IMG/VR virus record: IMGVR_UViG_3300020048_000045
Reading direction: 5' to 3' (one strand)
DNA: 59,522 nt
Source: an uncultured virus (IMG/VR IMGVR_UViG_3300020048_000045)
Lineage: Duplodnaviria > Heunggongvirae > Uroviricota > Caudoviricetes
Below, one piece after another: positions 622 to 16,290 of this stretch; position 1 is the first letter of the stretch; each line of letters opens with the position of its first letter. The translations under genes and the position numbers were made by a program. The notes under the pieces were generated by a model, which was not told the origin of the DNA, searched no databases, and was given only the letters and a program-made list of their open reading frames with translations.

Positions 622-1512
622 TTAATAGTCATCACCGTCACTAGTAATAACTTTATCAGAAGCAACCAAGTTATCGTCAGCATTATATTCCTTCAGATCC
701 CTTAACAGGAAGAACTCCCTGCATCCATGCTCACCAGTAACATTCAATACGAATCTTTCGTGAGGTTTTAGATCTTTTGGTTTCTTAGCACGAAGATTCC
801 TCAGGATGTTCTCGTCCATATAATTGACAAGTCTGAAGTTCTTCAAGCTATATGCAGGCAGGAAGCCTTTGTTATACACACCTTGATACTCTTTACTTTC
901 ACCTTCTTTGTCCTTAATAGACACGGTGGCCAGAGCAACAATGTTTGTACACCATTCACCATCAATCTGATCTTTCAGGTCTTTTGTGTTACCTTTCATC
1001 AGCTTCTTCCAATCCAACTCAAGAGTTGTCTCAGCTTTGCGATAATCAAGCTCACCAAGCCAGGTCCTTAAGAAACCATAAAGTTCCTCTTCACCAACTT
1101 TAGCAATACGATAATCACGAGCTGTAAACCACTCAGGTAAGTTGTTGGGATCATCAGCCCAAGCACAAGACCCTACAGCATTGATATACTGTGTCTTAGT
1201 CTGGTCCTTGTTCATACGCTCCTTGTTTTCCAGGAAGAATGTAACTTTAAACTTACCTTCACGTTTCTCTTCATCAGACTCATTCTTGATGTCTTGAAGC
1301 CACACATCCACTCTCAGATAAGTATTACCATCCTGGCTGGTACCCAAATACTCAACAGCCTTGCTGTCTTCCTTCAGTTCTGTACCAAGCAGTTCTTTGT
1401 ACTCTTCTGCATCTGGATTAATAGCTACTACTTTGGCTTCAAACAGGCCAACACTCTTTTTAAAATCTGGGAGATTTGTTCTCTCTTTTTTTGCTCCACC
1501 AATTGTACTCAT
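622..1512 (-). CDS. Putative single-stranded DNA-binding protein (crAss-like)
   Basis: 296 aa, acidic C-terminal tail (SDGDDY), located between AAA ATPase and primase. Confidence 0.5.
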   Translation of the reverse strand: MSTIGGAKKERTNLPDFKKSVGLFEAKVVAINPDAEEYKELLGTELKEDSKAVEYLGTSQDGNTYLRVDVWLQDIKNESDEEKREGKFKVTFFLENKERMNKDQTKTQYINAVGSCAWADDPNNLPEWFTARDYRIAKVGEEELYGFLRTWLGELDYRKAETTLELDWKKLMKGNTKDLKDQIDGEWCTNIVALATVSIKDKEGESKEYQGVYNKGFLPAYSLKNFRLVNYMDENILRNLRAKKPKDLKPHERFVLNVTGEHGCREFFLLRDLKEYNADDNLVASDKVITSDGDDY

Positions 1513-13709: not shown

Positions 13710-14009
13710 CTATAACTCTTCTAATACCTTCTCTAGTTTATCAACTACGTCCTCATAACATGCTTTGCAATCTCTTGCAAAATTTGTACATGCATCATGA
13801 TGTTTACATAGATGTGCAGGGCCTTTTTTATCATCAATATTCTTAATCTGTTCCCTGTATATCCCTATAATAGCTTCAATGAGCCTCTTTCTCTCCCTAA
13901 GGTATTTCTCCATAGAGGGAACAATAAGATCATTGATGTATCCCTCATCCAAAATGACTTCCTTAGGATGATCTTTCATAAGCTGATGTAGTGTTTGCCA
14001 TTCCATCAT
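13710..14009 (-). CDS. Hypothetical protein
   Basis: 99-aa ORF with C/H cluster. Confidence 0.55.
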   Translation of the reverse strand: MMEWQTLHQLMKDHPKEVILDEGYINDLIVPSMEKYLRERKRLIEAIIGIYREQIKNIDDKKGPAHLCKHHDACTNFARDCKACYEDVVDKLEKVLEEL

Positions 14010-14178
14010 GCGAAATATCTAATCCATGTAAGAATGAGATGAGCGATGTGATGTCCCAATGTCCCCATGATCAAACCAAGAAGACATGAGAGAAAAATCG
14101 TTTCATATACATTGTAATGCTTTTCTGAAAAATTGTGTTTATTCATGTTTTATGATTTAAAGATTATAAGGGAGGTTG

Positions 14179-14251
14179 AGCCAGTAGTAGGATTCGAACC
14201 CACGACATACTGAATACAAATCAGCCATTCTACCATCTGAATTATACTGGC
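14179..14251 (-). tRNA. tRNA-Thr(UGU)
   Basis: Cloverleaf: GCCAGTA/TACTGGC acceptor, anticodon arm GCTGA-TTTGTAT-TCAGT, GTGGG-TTCGAAT-CCTAC T-arm. Confidence 0.92.
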
Positions 14252-14255
14252 ATAG

Positions 14256-14328
14256 TAACGCTGGCACGATTCGAACATGCGACCCAGGCTTATGCGATGC
14301 CCGTACTCTACCACTGAGCTACAGCGTT
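14256..14328 (-). tRNA. tRNA-like RNA with 9-nt non-canonical anticodon loop
   Basis: AACGCTG/CAGCGTT-A acceptor, intact D and T arms, anticodon stem CGGGC/GCCTG enclosing ATCGCATAA. Confidence 0.75.
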
Positions 14329-14332
14329 GTGT

Positions 14333-14474
14333 AATCCCCTTTAACGCAGGGGATCAGTTTCGTGCTTACGCAGCCAGTCTAACTGGTTGTAAAGCAAGTG
14401 TTCTTGTTTTGCCTGTTATGGCTTGATGCTTCTCTTACTATCTGCTTCATCGCCTGTCAAAACCAGTCACCCCC
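14333..14474 (-). ncRNA. ssrA: tmRNA coding piece (5' tRNA-like half plus tag reading frame) of a permuted ssrA
   Basis: Starts GGGGGTGACTGGTTTTGACAGGCG; ATAACA then tag frame 14413-14366 = GKTRTLALQPVRLAA*; terminal hairpin GATCCCCT/AGGGGATT. Confidence 0.9.
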
Positions 14475-14544
14475 TTATAAGGTTTAGGATACAGCAGTCA
14501 ATCTCATCTGTATCCTCTAACTTCAACAATTAATTGAACTGAAG

Positions 14545-14562
14545 TGGAGGTGAGGGGAGTCG
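14545..14562 (-). ncRNA. ssrA: tmRNA acceptor piece, exon 2 (3' T-arm and acceptor strand)
   Basis: CGACTCCCCTCACCTCCA; CACCTCC pairs with GGGGGTG giving G3-U70 and discriminator A. Confidence 0.9.
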
Positions 14563-14970
14563 CTATCCCTCTATTTGGAAGAATCTCATAACAAGAGTAT
14601 TTCTCTCTTGTTGTTCCTCATCTGTATACTTACCATTTCTTTTTGTCTTGGCTTGTATAAGATTGTAGGTTTCGATTCTGTGCTTCTTTTTAGGATGGAT
14701 GCTCATCAGCTTATTAGCAACTTTTAATCCACTTTGATAAGAATATTTAAGCTCAAAGGAGACTCCATGATGTTCTTTAAGTTTATCCTTTTTAGAGATA
14801 AAACCTTTAACACCTATGTCAATAAGAATAAACTTCTGGATTTCTTCAAGTATTGTCCTCTCATTGTTATGAAAACTTACCTGAATAGTCTTGTTCTTAC
14901 CCTTATTGTTACTAATTGCTGTGACACTTCCATCTGCGTCAAAGAAACCTGTGATATAATCCCAATTCAT
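14563..14970 (-). CDS. Single-motif LAGLIDADG homing endonuclease (135 aa)
   Basis: MNWDYITGFFDADGSV; located after P7/P9 inside the intron. Confidence 0.88.
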   Translation of the reverse strand: MNWDYITGFFDADGSVTAISNNKGKNKTIQVSFHNNERTILEEIQKFILIDIGVKGFISKKDKLKEHHGVSFELKYSYQSGLKVANKLMSIHPKKKHRIETYNLIQAKTKRNGKYTDEEQQERNTLVMRFFQIEG

Positions 14971-14987
14971 AGCTTTACAGTTTATTG

Positions 14988-15019
14988 TAAAGATAGGGGA
15001 AATATACATCACCTCCAAA
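14988..15019 (-). promoter_or_regulatory. Bacteroidota-type promoter inside the intron, upstream of the endonuclease
   Basis: TTTG-N20-TATCTTTA, 17 nt upstream of the ATG at 14970. Confidence 0.65.
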
Positions 15020-15228
15020 TATATTCTACAATTTCTTGTAGGATTGGACTATATCATCACCTGTTCTAGGTGTTGGATGCTGTAGGCTCACCGTAGTGTC
15101 CTTAGTCTCTGAACCTTCCTTGATCTTCCCCAAGGCTTGGCTGCTGATTACCTTATCTTCCCAGACTTAGGGTTCCAGCAATTCATCCAATTTTTAATTA
15201 TACATCCCTGTATAATGGGTCCAACTCG

Positions 15229-15262
15229 AACCCCTGTCCAAACGACTGCCTATAATCGTCAA
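15229..15262 (-). ncRNA. ssrA: tmRNA acceptor piece, exon 1 (5' end approximate)
   Basis: GTCGTTTGGACAGGGGTT; GTCGTTTG pairs with CAGGCGAT of the coding piece (helix 2). Confidence 0.85.
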
Positions 15263-15272
15263 CAAAACATCG

Positions 15273-15351
15273 TAACGCTAAATGGATTCGAACCACTGAC
15301 CCAGGCTAATGTTTGGCTGTGCCTGTACTCTACCAACTGAGTTATAGCGTT
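15273..15351 (-). tRNA. tRNA-like RNA with 14-nt non-canonical anticodon loop
   Basis: AACGCTA/TAGCGTT-A acceptor, D arm, CAGGC/GCCTG stem enclosing ACAGCCAAACATTA, AGTGG-TTCGAAT-CCATT T-arm. Confidence 0.75.
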
Positions 15352-15359
15352 ATATACCC

Positions 15360-15822
15360 TCCTCTCAAGCTATAATAAATAGCGGTGTCAGATTTGGGTT
15401 ATCTCTGTCTGTTCCAGAGTGTCAAAGAATAACAAATAATCAAATGATTAGCACCCTCTTGTCTTACTACACCAGCCCTTTATCAAAAAGGTTGAGGTTC
15501 TTATGTTAACTCTGGTTCATAATATCTGTTATAATAAGAGTAGGGTCACGATGATTTAGGTTGGCTCACCTTAAGGGTTAGTACTCTCATATCATCTTGC
15601 TTGAGACTCATTCGTGTTGTGATGTTTGTGGTCAGGGCTGTGTACGTTAGCCTCAAAGACACTTCTTAACACCTTCTAATCATGCACCCTTTCTCAAGGA
15701 GCAACACGTTACGACTTTCATCGTACATCTTTATGCGAATTGAAGGGAAGTTGTTGCCAACTGCATGCATTTCTGCATCTGCCACGACTTATTCACATCA
15801 GGGTCACTGTTTAGCCTGTTTA
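15360..15822 (-). ncRNA. Candidate large structured ncRNA (unassigned)
   Basis: No ORF of 60 aa or more; four GNRA-capped hairpins on the minus strand and further stems. Confidence 0.6.
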
Positions 15823-15828
15823 ATTTAA

Positions 15829-16010
15829 AAACTACCTGTCCACTTACTAAGTGTGGAATATATGGAATAGGAAATACCCACTGCTCCTATTTTCAAGAGT
15901 CATCCGACTCTTAGGTCTATCAATATCTTATCGCAAACAAACATCCTTCTTAGCAAGGATTATCGAACGCTTAAAGCAGATTCAACTGTTTGCATTTCAG
16001 CAGGCAGTTT
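15829..16010 (-). ncRNA. Candidate ~180-nt multi-stem ncRNA (unassigned)
   Basis: Closing helix AAACTGCCTG/CAGGTAGTTT enclosing at least four hairpins. Confidence 0.55.
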
Positions 16011-16014
16011 AAAA

Positions 16015-16290
16015 TTATTTCTTCAATGTTGCATTCAGACTGTCTAACATTTGAATAGCTTGTGGATAGGTTGTGTATCTATCCAATACAATACTTTCAT
16101 CTGCTTGCCAGTCTATATCAACAACAATTTTAGGAGATGCTCCATTATTGTTACACGTTGAATTAAGATAATAGCCTCTTACTTTATGATCAGCTGTAAA
16201 AGCTCTTATAATAACAGCAAATATAACAATACAGGCTAATGTTATAAAAAATGTAATAACATTGCCCCAAAAGTCTTCATCAAATTTCAT
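16015..16290 (-). CDS. Hypothetical membrane-anchored protein
   Basis: N-terminal hydrophobic helix. Confidence 0.6.
   Translation of the reverse strand: MKFDEDFWGNVITFFITLACIVIFAVIIRAFTADHKVRGYYLNSTCNNNGASPKIVVDIDWQADESIVLDRYTTYPQAIQMLDSLNATLKK

What the first reader, a model, noticed from the sequence alone, without database searches (positions are those of the whole stretch)
14333..15262. Phage-encoded circularly permuted (two-piece) tmRNA that must also be spliced
Seen, in minus-strand order: the 3' tRNA-like half comes first (GGACAGGGGTT, intron, CGACTCCCCTCACCTCCA ending 14545), then a ~70-nt intervening segment with its own hairpin (AGGATACAG/CTGTATCCT), then the 5' half (GGGGGTGACTGGTTTTGAC from 14474) with a tag ORF. 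The halves form a 7-bp acceptor stem with the G3-U70 alanine determinant and a helix-2 pairing (CAGGCGAT/GTCGTTTG). Established: permuted tmRNAs occur in some alpha/betaproteobacteria and cyanobacteria, and group I introns occur in the T-loop of some tmRNAs. Inference: a gene that is both permuted and intron-split, in a crAss-like phage, is a combination I do not know to be described, and standard tRNA/tmRNA finders would likely miss it.
Basis: partly seen in the sequence, partly recalled or inferred. Interest (0 to 1): 0.95.

Follow-up and report, generated by a model that had tools for sequence, protein, structure and literature searches.

The report
Split-and-spliced phage tmRNA gene
A crAss-like phage carries its ribosome-rescue RNA (tmRNA) as a reordered two-piece gene that is also interrupted by a self-splicing intron carrying a homing nuclease gene, a combination of two known oddities that standard gene finders miss.

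Summary
On the minus strand the order is: a tRNA-like gene; the tmRNA acceptor piece (15272-15229), cut after the first two U of its T-loop by a 666-nt group I intron (15228-14563; Rfam RF00028, 100.3 bits) that holds a LAGLIDADG gene; the 3' exon (14562-14545); a 70-nt spacer; the coding piece (14474-14329) with tag GKTRTLALQPVRLAA; then two tRNAs.

ARAGORN calls nothing on the native DNA. With the intron removed it makes one call, a permuted tmRNA (0 of 500 shuffles give any call).

The gene body is homologous to intron-less permuted tmRNAs of other viral contigs, which pass Rfam RF04321. The intron is orthologous to introns at the same T-loop site in one-piece tmRNAs of related phages (L241, L242).

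Each part is already published: phage two-piece tmRNAs, and T-loop introns at this subsite in Bacteroidia. The combination is absent from the five form classes of the 2025 tmRNA database and from my paper searches. I found one further candidate, on a truncated contig (L289).

Verdict: real, probably functional, and a new variant of a known kind. No RNA data exist. This scan has noted phage two-piece tmRNAs before on other DNA, none with an intron.

The parts
15273..15351 (-). tRNA-like gene with a 14-nt anticodon loop, directly upstream. Its 3' end probably defines the 5' end of the acceptor piece.
   Evidence: Rfam RF00005 52.7 bits. ARAGORN misses it without the intron option. A similar odd tRNA precedes the permuted tmRNA of L121.
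15229..15272 (-). Acceptor piece, 5' exon: leader that forms the 3' strands of helix P2, then GGAC, the T-stem 5' strand, and the first two T-loop bases (UU).
   Evidence: Sequence. ARAGORN places the first part of its 3' tRNA domain at 15246-15229. The cofold pairs 15272-15239 with coding-piece nt 19-50.
14563..15228 (-). Group I intron, 666 nt. The ribozyme core lies in the first ~205 nt and the ORF fills the rest. It ends in the terminal G at 14563.
   Evidence: RF00028 100.3 bits at 15239-15025. P1 is GGGUU|C with G-GACCC, including the U.G pair at the splice site. P10 is CGACU/AGUUG (read). Orthologous introns of 667 and 664 nt sit in L241 and L242.
14563..14970 (-). LAGLIDADG homing endonuclease ORF (135 aa) placed after P9. 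Its TAG stop ends on the intron's last G.
   Evidence: Pfam PF14528 LAGLIDADG_3, 32 bits (cut-off 22.5). 45% and 49% identical proteins occupy the same place in L241 and L242.
14545..14562 (-). Acceptor piece, 3' exon: the last five T-loop bases, the T-stem 3' strand, the acceptor 3' strand with U70, and discriminator A. CCA is not encoded.
   Evidence: Sequence. Second part of ARAGORN's 3' tRNA domain.
14475..14544 (-). Intervening segment, 70 nt, with two hairpins and no ORF. Presumed to be removed by tRNA end-processing.
   Evidence: Sequence. Spacers of 18-75 nt in the eight permuted relatives measured.
14329..14474 (-). Coding piece: 5' tRNA-like domain 14474-14449, P2 5' strands to about 14425, tag ORF 14413-14366 (15 codons plus TAA), post-tag hairpin 14354-14334.
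   Evidence: ARAGORN domains and tag. Cofold. Homology to L118, L121 and L067.
14178..14328 (-). tRNA-Cys(GCA) at 14328-14255 and tRNA-Thr(TGT) at 14251-14178, directly downstream. The 5' end of tRNA-Cys probably defines the 3' end of the coding piece.
   Evidence: ARAGORN, Rfam. No terminator-like site in 13900-16100.

Best explanation
This is a working tmRNA gene of a crAss-like phage, probably one that infects a Bacteroidota host. [quoted passage not shown]

Inferred pathway:
1. The tRNA-like gene, both tmRNA pieces and the two downstream tRNAs are transcribed as one precursor.
2. The intron splices itself out between U 15229 and C 14562 and restores a 7-nt T-loop. Its LAGLIDADG protein serves only the intron's own spread.
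3. The restored tRNA-like domain is cut by RNase P before G 14474, trimmed after A 14545, and given CCA by the host enzyme. The 70-nt spacer is discarded.
4. This leaves two RNAs, about 62 nt plus CCA and about 146 nt. They are held together by the 7-bp acceptor stem and about 23 bp of helix P2.
5. The pair is charged with alanine through G3-U70, binds host SmpB, and tags stalled nascent chains with (A)GKTRTLALQPVRLAA.

Shown here: the DNA architecture, the family memberships and the homologies. Inferred: transcription, splicing, processing, charging and tagging.

The intron most likely entered by homing from the one-piece tmRNA gene of a related phage. The T-arm target is contiguous in both gene forms.
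For: - ARAGORN: one permuted tmRNA call in the window once the intron is deleted. None before deletion, and 0 of 500 shuffles give a call.
- Intron: RF00028 100.3 bits. U(-1).G in P1, terminal G, 5-bp P10. Intact LAGLIDADG ORF.
- Folding: the cofold recovers the acceptor stem with G3-U, the T arm, and 23 intermolecular P2 pairs. Five of the eight relatives folded show comparably long P2 pairing (33-44 intermolecular pairs).
- Homology of the gene body: the coding piece matches L118 at 86 of 103 positions. Its alignment score is 47 against a maximum of 10 in 200 shuffles.
- Relatives pass the family model: L118, L121, L067, L069, L116 and L001 pass RF04321 at 53.8-94.2 bits (gathering score 47).
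- Tag: the ...PVRLAA ending is shared with L118, L067/L107 and L121.
- Intron relatives: the same intron at the same T-loop site interrupts one-piece tmRNAs next to the DNA polymerase gene in L241 (polymerase 72.8% identical) and L242 (40%). The ribozyme part is 78% and 72% identical. The homing site differs from L241's at 1 of 22 bases (read).
- Host signal: the 5' 19-mer occurs in 27 one-piece bacterial tmRNAs, 20 of them from genera I know as Bacteroidota.
- Independent sample: a unitig from another study shows the same junction of intron end, 3' exon and spacer.
Against: - No RNA evidence of any kind.
- RF04321 on the native DNA scores only 25.5 bits (gathering score 47), and that alignment misplaces the 5' part. 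No tool here could score the spliced sequence with a covariance model.
- The cofold energy is only modestly better than with a shuffled acceptor piece: z -2.3, and 6 of 200 shuffles reach it.
- No pseudoknot was identified.
- ARAGORN tolerates junction shifts of +-2 nt, so the exact boundaries rest on group I intron rules rather than on that call.
- A minor haplotype in the probable source run (depth 2.6 against 7.4) lacks the whole cassette, so the phage can do without it.
- Of the 80 DNA-polymerase relatives, the 11 in which ARAGORN called a tmRNA all carry one-piece genes, none permuted.
- No SmpB or CCA-adding enzyme among the 56 window ORFs scanned.
Confidence: 0.8

Rival explanations
1. 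The architecture is real DNA but the gene is dead or decaying. On this view the intron invasion, or the loss of pseudoknots, has left a relic, or at most a tRNA-like decoy that soaks up SmpB.
For: - A haplotype without the cassette coexists in the probable source run.
- No pseudoknot was recognised, and the region between P2 and the resume codon is short.
- RF04321 is below gathering score on native DNA.
- A phage sequence that is little more than the tRNA-like domain is on record (mycobacteriophage DS6A; PMC4131195 passages).
Against: - Every element that could have decayed is intact: acceptor stem with G3-U70, T arm, 23-bp P2, a 15-codon tag ending LAA with a stop, a full-scoring ribozyme core with correct P1 and P10, and an open endonuclease frame.
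- Intron-less homologues have the same short body and still pass RF04321.
Confidence: 0.12
2. It is not a permuted gene. Two unrelated fragments lie side by side: the 3' remnant of a one-piece tmRNA, with its intron, and the 5' part of another. Such remnants arise when elements integrate into tmRNA genes.
For: - Close DNA-polymerase relatives carry one-piece genes with the same intron.
- The cassette is flanked by two similar tRNA-like genes, and a haplotype has a single tRNA in their place.
Against: - The 44-nt leader of the upstream fragment is complementary to nt 19-50 of the downstream fragment (23 bp), and the acceptor strands match with G3-U70.
- The downstream part ends about 35 nt after the tag stop, with no 3' tRNA-like domain of its own.
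- Eleven viral loci with the same 5' 19-mer have this same order without any intron. ARAGORN calls nine of the eleven as permuted, and L067 passes RF04321.
Confidence: 0.04
3. Assembly artefact: a chimeric join of reads from a one-piece intron-bearing tmRNA and a permuted tmRNA of co-occurring phages.
For: - The T-arm and acceptor sequences are near-identical between forms and could mislead an assembler.
- Repeats (the flanking tRNA paralogues) create a bubble in the assembly graph.
Against: - One unitig of the probable source run covers 14233-15347 without a break.
- A 151-nt unitig from a different study bridges intron end, 3' exon and spacer (14517-14663).
Confidence: 0.03

Closest known systems
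Intron-form tmRNA genes with a group I intron in the T-loop, subsite 3 (reported only from class Bacteroidia); PMC11915505, Results section read
   Same: - Group I intron after the second U of the T-loop, with -1 U paired to G in P1 and a terminal G.
- Length under 700 nt.
- LAGLIDADG gene after P9, a placement the paper reports for 4 of 23 endonuclease-bearing introns.
- Orthologous introns interrupt one-piece phage tmRNAs in L241 and L242.
   Different: - All 883 catalogued intron forms are counted apart from the permuted forms. Here the interrupted gene is permuted.
- That this is 'subsite 3' is my reading of the paper's 1-8 numbering.
Phage-encoded two-piece (permuted) tmRNAs: OM43 phage Melnitz, and 53 two-piece among 133 unique phage tmRNA structures called by ARAGORN; PMC9004378, passages read
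   Same: - Phage-borne gene with the acceptor piece upstream of the coding piece.
- Aquatic origin.
- No CCA dependence on the phage.
   Different: - Those genes are uninterrupted, and Melnitz's is of alphaproteobacterial type.
- This one has a Bacteroidota-like tRNA domain.
- Its intron-less relatives reach gathering score only for the generic RF04321, not for the alpha, beta or cyano models. The exception is L001, which also passes the alpha model RF01849.
- This one carries an intron.
Two-piece tmRNA of Caulobacter and other Alphaproteobacteria, one betaproteobacterial lineage and some cyanobacteria (Keiler 2000 and Sharkady 2004, seen only as references in PMC9004378; Rfam RF01849-51 and RF04321)
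   Same: - Permuted order.
- Maturation by tRNA end-processing.
- Two RNAs held together by the acceptor stem and P2.
   Different: - Bacterial chromosomal genes without introns.
- Different tRNA-domain sequence, for example the UGCGAAU T-loop in the alpha-type loci.
Circularly permuted tRNA genes of Cyanidioschyzon merolae, some of which I recall also carry introns (PMC3978253, search listing and abstract only)
   Same: A tRNA-shaped RNA whose gene is both permuted and interrupted, so several processing steps must cooperate.
   Different: - Eukaryotic nuclear tRNAs.
- Protein-spliced bulge-helix-bulge introns and a circular intermediate.
- Not tmRNA and not group I.

Membership tests
tmRNA, permuted form (Rfam RF04321 tmRNA_permuted) | Score at or above the family's gathering score (47 bits) | tested here: not met
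   Native DNA scores 25.5 bits, E 0.0068, with the 5' part misaligned into the intron. The spliced sequence could not be given to the tool. The homologues L118, L121, L067, L069, L116 and L001 score 53.8-94.2 bits.
tmRNA, permuted form | tRNA-like domain: 7-bp acceptor stem with G3-U70 and discriminator A, plus a T arm with a 7-nt loop | tested here: met
   Met after in-silico splicing.
tmRNA, permuted form | Gene order: acceptor (3') piece upstream, intervening segment, coding (5') piece; the pieces joined by helix P2 | tested here: met
   The order is read. ARAGORN labels it 'Permuted'. 23 intermolecular P2 pairs.
tmRNA, permuted form | Tag reading frame with a resume codon and a stop, ending in a hydrophobic/Ala-Ala degron | tested here: met
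   GKTRTLALQPVRLAA* at 14413-14366. Relatives share ...PVRLAA. A G-first tag is also seen in Bacteroidota one-piece genes.
tmRNA, permuted form | Two mature RNAs, alanylation, SmpB-dependent tagging | not testable with these tools
   No RNA run holds the stretch. These need bench tests.
Group I intron (Rfam RF00028) | Score at or above the gathering score (50 bits), covering the whole model | tested here: met
   100.3 bits, model positions 1-253 of 253.
Group I intron | -1 U paired with G in P1, terminal G, P10 with the 3' exon | tested here: met
   U 15229 pairs with G in GGGUU|C / G-GACCC. G 14563 is the last intron base. CGACU pairs with AGUUG (read).
Group I intron | Self-splicing activity | not testable with these tools
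   No RNA data.
LAGLIDADG homing endonuclease (Pfam PF14528 LAGLIDADG_3) | Score above the curated cut-off | tested here: met
   32 bits against 22.5. PF00961 scores 20.9 against 23.1, which is not met. The protein has a single motif, so I infer a homodimeric type.
Crassvirales-like phage (context) | crAss-type capsid and tail ring proteins | tested here: met
   PF23898 Crass_capsid 94.3 bits, PF25702 66 bits, PF24228 36.8 bits. The large terminase is 27-41% identical to crAss-like and related phages.

The most novel reading that the evidence does not exclude
The intron and its endonuclease have moved between one-piece and two-piece tmRNA genes of related crAss-like phages ('cross-form homing'). 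The two-piece genes with a Bacteroidota-type tRNA domain would be a phage-borne permutation lineage separate from the alpha, beta and cyanobacterial ones. The resulting RNA would then be the first tmRNA known to need three maturation systems acting together: self-splicing, tRNA end-processing, and assembly of two pieces. Splicing would gate formation of the RNase P substrate.
Probability: 0.4. Interest if true: 0.65.

Novelty: new variant of a known kind. Interest (0 to 1): 0.55.

Why it matters
- **A gap in the catalogue.** The three textbook tmRNA gene forms (standard, intron, permuted) turn out not to be mutually exclusive. The largest curated catalogue (97,179 sequences) has no class for the combination.
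- **A blind spot in the tools.** ARAGORN and the Rfam models miss such genes, so phage and metagenome annotation will undercount them.
- **A test case for RNA maturation.** The tRNA-like domain that RNase P, the 3' trimming enzymes, the CCA enzyme, AlaRS and SmpB must recognise does not exist until the ribozyme has acted.
- **A natural example of homing.** A homing endonuclease here follows a conserved RNA-gene target across two different gene architectures.
- **Limits.** It opens no long-standing question. A specialist would find it neat rather than shocking.

Tried and rejected
- **RNA evidence.** No RNA holder was listed for the stretch, so expression and splicing could not be examined.
- **Whole genome.** None is held for this window.
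- **Phage GenBank collection.** A distant DNA search with 14100-15500 matched only the intron core (116 records, none covering 80% of the query). No relative of the tmRNA appeared.
- **Closest cultured relative.** By terminase this is Leptolyngbya phage Lbo-JY46, at 41% identity. It has no tmRNA above cut-off.
- **Neighbour-protein searches.** The vWA-like protein found no viral relatives. The 686-aa protein found 60 loci at 39-49% identity, with no tmRNA in them.
- **Endonuclease in bacterial genomes.** No relative found.
- **Metagenome search for the same architecture.** The pattern asks for G before CGAMT in the 3' exon, a 45-75 nt gap, then GGGGSTGA.
  - It gave 94 matches, of which I examined 80.
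  - 57 have a contiguous T arm. These are mostly alpha-type genes whose loop reads UGCGAAU, so the leading G was not intron-specific.
  - 23 do not. Of those, only L289 is tmRNA-like.
- **Viral search for the intron-3' exon junction.** It gave 19 matches. Eight are one-piece tmRNAs with the intron. None has a 5' domain within 200 nt downstream.
- **ARAGORN as a boundary test.** It still calls the gene with the junction shifted by up to 2 nt, so it does not fix the boundaries.
- **Promoter and terminator scan.** Five promoter-like sites against 6.2 expected, and 0 terminators. Uninformative.
- **Supplement of PMC11915505.** The text held is cut to covariance-model files. The taxonomic/form table S2 could not be seen. 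I therefore cannot exclude that single entries combine both features.
- **ARAGORN with the intron option.** On the odd tRNA it gave forced, unconvincing calls.
- **Earlier notes of this scan.** They list other phage two-piece tmRNAs, none with an intron.

Full report
**What is in the sequence**

Read on the minus strand, the region holds these elements in order:
- a tRNA-like gene at 15351-15273 (Rfam tRNA, 52.7 bits);
- a 44-nt stretch at 15272-15229 that ends in GGAC, a five-base T-stem strand and two T;
- 666 nt at 15228-14563;
- 18 nt at 14562-14545 that supply the other five T-loop bases, the T-stem partner, a seven-base acceptor strand and a discriminator A;
- a 70-nt spacer at 14544-14475 with two hairpins;
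- a 146-nt stretch at 14474-14329 that begins with the complementary acceptor strand and holds a 15-codon frame with a stop;
- tRNA-Cys and tRNA-Thr.

**The insert is a group I intron**

- Rfam scores 15239-15025 at 100.3 bits against a gathering score of 50, over the whole model.
- The last exon base is a U. It pairs with a G inside P1.
- The insert ends in G.
- The first five bases of the 3' exon can pair with the P1 loop to give a P10.
- The rest of the insert is an open 135-codon frame, and its TAG stop ends on the terminal G. The protein matches Pfam LAGLIDADG_3 at 32 bits against a cut-off of 22.5.

**The two exons and the downstream piece make a permuted tmRNA**

- ARAGORN finds no tmRNA in the native window. 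Rfam finds none at gathering score.
- RF04321 reaches only 25.5 bits on native DNA, with its 5' part misaligned into the intron.
- After 15228-14563 is removed in a script, ARAGORN makes exactly one tmRNA call in the window. It labels it Permuted, with tag GKTRTLALQPVRLAA*.
- None of 500 dinucleotide-preserving shuffles of the spliced stretch gives a call.
- ARAGORN still calls the gene with the junction moved by up to 2 nt. The exact boundaries therefore rest on the group I rules.
- An RNAcofold of the two predicted mature pieces recovers three features. These are the 7-bp acceptor stem with G3-U, the T arm, and 23 intermolecular pairs in four segments. Those pairs link the whole 44-nt leader to nt 19-50 of the coding piece, forming a long P2.
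- The energy gain over a shuffled acceptor piece is modest: z -2.3, and 6 of 200 shuffles reach it.
- Five of the eight permuted viral tmRNAs folded the same way show comparably long P2 pairing (33-44 intermolecular pairs).

**Relatives of the gene body**

- The 5' 19-mer occurs in 53 viral loci. In 11 of them the acceptor 3' strand and an uninterrupted T arm lie within 130 nt upstream. ARAGORN of those 11 as permuted and 33 of the other loci as standard.
- A search for the tag end found one more permuted gene, in L121. It follows a tRNA array.
- Six intron-less loci pass RF04321: L001 94.2, L116 60.1, L067 59.6, L069 57.2, L118 55.3 and L121 53.8 bits.
- Beyond the shared 19-mer, the window's coding piece is most like L121, L118 and L067/L107, all permuted.
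- It matches L118 at 86 of 103 aligned positions. The alignment score is 47 against a maximum of 10 in 200 shuffles.
- The tags of these loci end ...PVRLAA like the window's.

**Relatives of the phage and of the intron**

- The window is crAss-like: Pfam Crass_capsid 94.3 bits and both crAss tail-ring families. The terminase is 27-41% identical to crAss-like and related phages.
- Eighty viral loci encode a DNA polymerase 67-76% identical to the window's. ARAGORN finds a tmRNA upstream of the polymerase in 11 of the 80, always one-piece.
- The endonuclease has two viral relatives, L241 (45%) and L242 (49%).
- Both sit in introns of 667 and 664 nt that split the T-loop of a one-piece tmRNA after the same two bases, just upstream of a DNA polymerase gene.
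- The polymerase is 72.8% identical to the window's in L241 and 40% in L242.
- The ribozyme part of the intron is 78% and 72% identical to the window's. The endonuclease DNA is 55-58% identical.
- The exon bases around the insertion site differ from L241's at 1 of 22 positions (read).

So the gene body belongs to a permuted phage lineage, while the intron belongs to a lineage that otherwise sits in one-piece genes of related phages. Homing across gene forms is the simplest account, because the T-arm target is contiguous in both.

**Host**

- The 19-mer occurs in 37 bacterial or archaeal genome loci.
- ARAGORN one-piece tmRNAs and 1 permuted tmRNA among them.
- Twenty of the 27 are from genera I know as Bacteroidota.
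- Their tags also start with G.

**How rare is the combination?**

- A metagenome pattern for the 3' exon preceded by G, a 45-75 nt spacer and the 5' strand gave 94 matches. I examined 80.
  - 57 have a contiguous T arm, because alpha-type loops read UGCGAAU.
  - 23 do not, and only L289 among them looks like tmRNA.
- L289 is a 1039-nt contig. Its permuted tmRNA has a different tag, and its 3' exon is preceded by 31 nt that resemble the 3' end of endonuclease-less introns in viral tmRNAs. The contig ends there, so this is only a candidate.
- A viral pattern for the junction of intron and 3' exon gave 19 matches. Eight are one-piece genes with the intron, and none has a 5' domain downstream.

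**DNA reality**

- In the probable source run, one unitig covers 14233-15347.
- A run from another study holds a 151-nt unitig across 14517-14663.
- A third unitig has the same 5' domain and post-tag hairpin, but a diverged stretch of equal length over the tag.
- No RNA run holds the stretch.

**Comparison with what is known**

- PMC11915505 (abstract, Results and passages read) lists five form classes that add up to all 97,179 sequences: standard, permuted, intron, and two classes without a coding sequence. None is combined.
- The same paper reports introns at four T-loop subsites. Subsite 3 is found only in Bacteroidia. 36 of 883 introns carry endonuclease genes.
- PMC9004378 (passages read) describes the two-piece tmRNA of phage Melnitz. 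It counts 53 two-piece forms among 133 unique phage tmRNA structures.
- Full-text searches for tmRNA with permuted, phage and group I intron (13 papers), and for 'permuted tmRNA' with intron (4 papers), gave no description of a permuted tmRNA with an intron. Apart from PMC11915505, I saw those papers only as listings or abstracts.
- The database's supplementary table S2 could not be read.

**Verdict**

Each component is known. The combination is a new variant, it is rare, and it is invisible to standard finders. Function remains inferred.

Noticed in passing
window 15351-15273 (-), window 14328-14255 (-), L121 2327-2251 (-): The tRNA-like gene just upstream of the tmRNA has a 14-nt anticodon loop. 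ARAGORN misses it; Rfam gives 52.7 bits. A tRNA-like gene with a similar oversized loop (shared ..CCA.AAACAT.A) sits just upstream of the permuted tmRNA in L121. The downstream tRNA-Cys is a paralogue of the upstream gene, with an A.A mismatch closing its anticodon stem and C rather than U at position 33. The nature of these genes is unknown.
   Followed up: partly
window 14262 to 15318 (run X1): A 99-nt unitig (depth 2.6 against 7.4) joins 14262 to 15318 with 39 other letters between. This is a coexisting haplotype with one tRNA-like gene in place of upstream tRNA + tmRNA + intron + tRNA-Cys. The 1055-nt cassette is therefore flanked by tRNA paralogues and is present or absent among strains.
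   Followed up: no
L289 (1039-nt metagenome contig), match at 926-1008 (-): A second candidate for a permuted tmRNA with an interrupted T-loop. It has a different tRNA domain and tag (ends AIAA). Its 3' exon is preceded by an intron-like 3' end, but the contig stops 31 nt upstream.
   Followed up: partly
window 15460-15448 (-); L137, L183, L070, L076, L078, L096 upstream of their tmRNAs: The motif AAGAGGGTGCTAA lies about 100 nt upstream of the tRNA-tmRNA cluster. The same motif, or at least its GAGGGTGCTAA core, recurs 90-130 nt upstream of one-piece tmRNAs in related viral contigs. In some of those it is followed by a conserved hairpin just before G1. It may be a promoter or a leader element.
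   Followed up: no
L137, L165, L166, L177, L181, L183 and many of L068-L119: One-piece tmRNAs of this phage group encode unusually long tags of 18-31 residues, for example ...ANMNKVFSLL.EEVAVAA. These are far longer than the 8-10 residue tags of the Bacteroidota genomes that share the same 5' end.
   Followed up: no
window 14385-14451 (run X4): A unitig from another study keeps the 5' tRNA-like domain and the post-tag hairpin, but has a diverged stretch of equal length over the tag region. This suggests tag variation between strains.
   Followed up: no
L241 about 3325 onward: The DNA polymerase match to the window stops at residue 389, and stop codons follow in that frame. This may be an interruption of the polymerase gene. 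Group I introns in DNA polymerase genes of other phages matched the window's intron core.
   Followed up: no
L212 1892-2187 (+): A 4-kb contig binned as a Flavobacterium MAG carries a one-piece tmRNA with the same 5' 19-mer and resume region, plus a group I intron (RF00028, 83.5 bits). It is probably phage DNA.
   Followed up: partly
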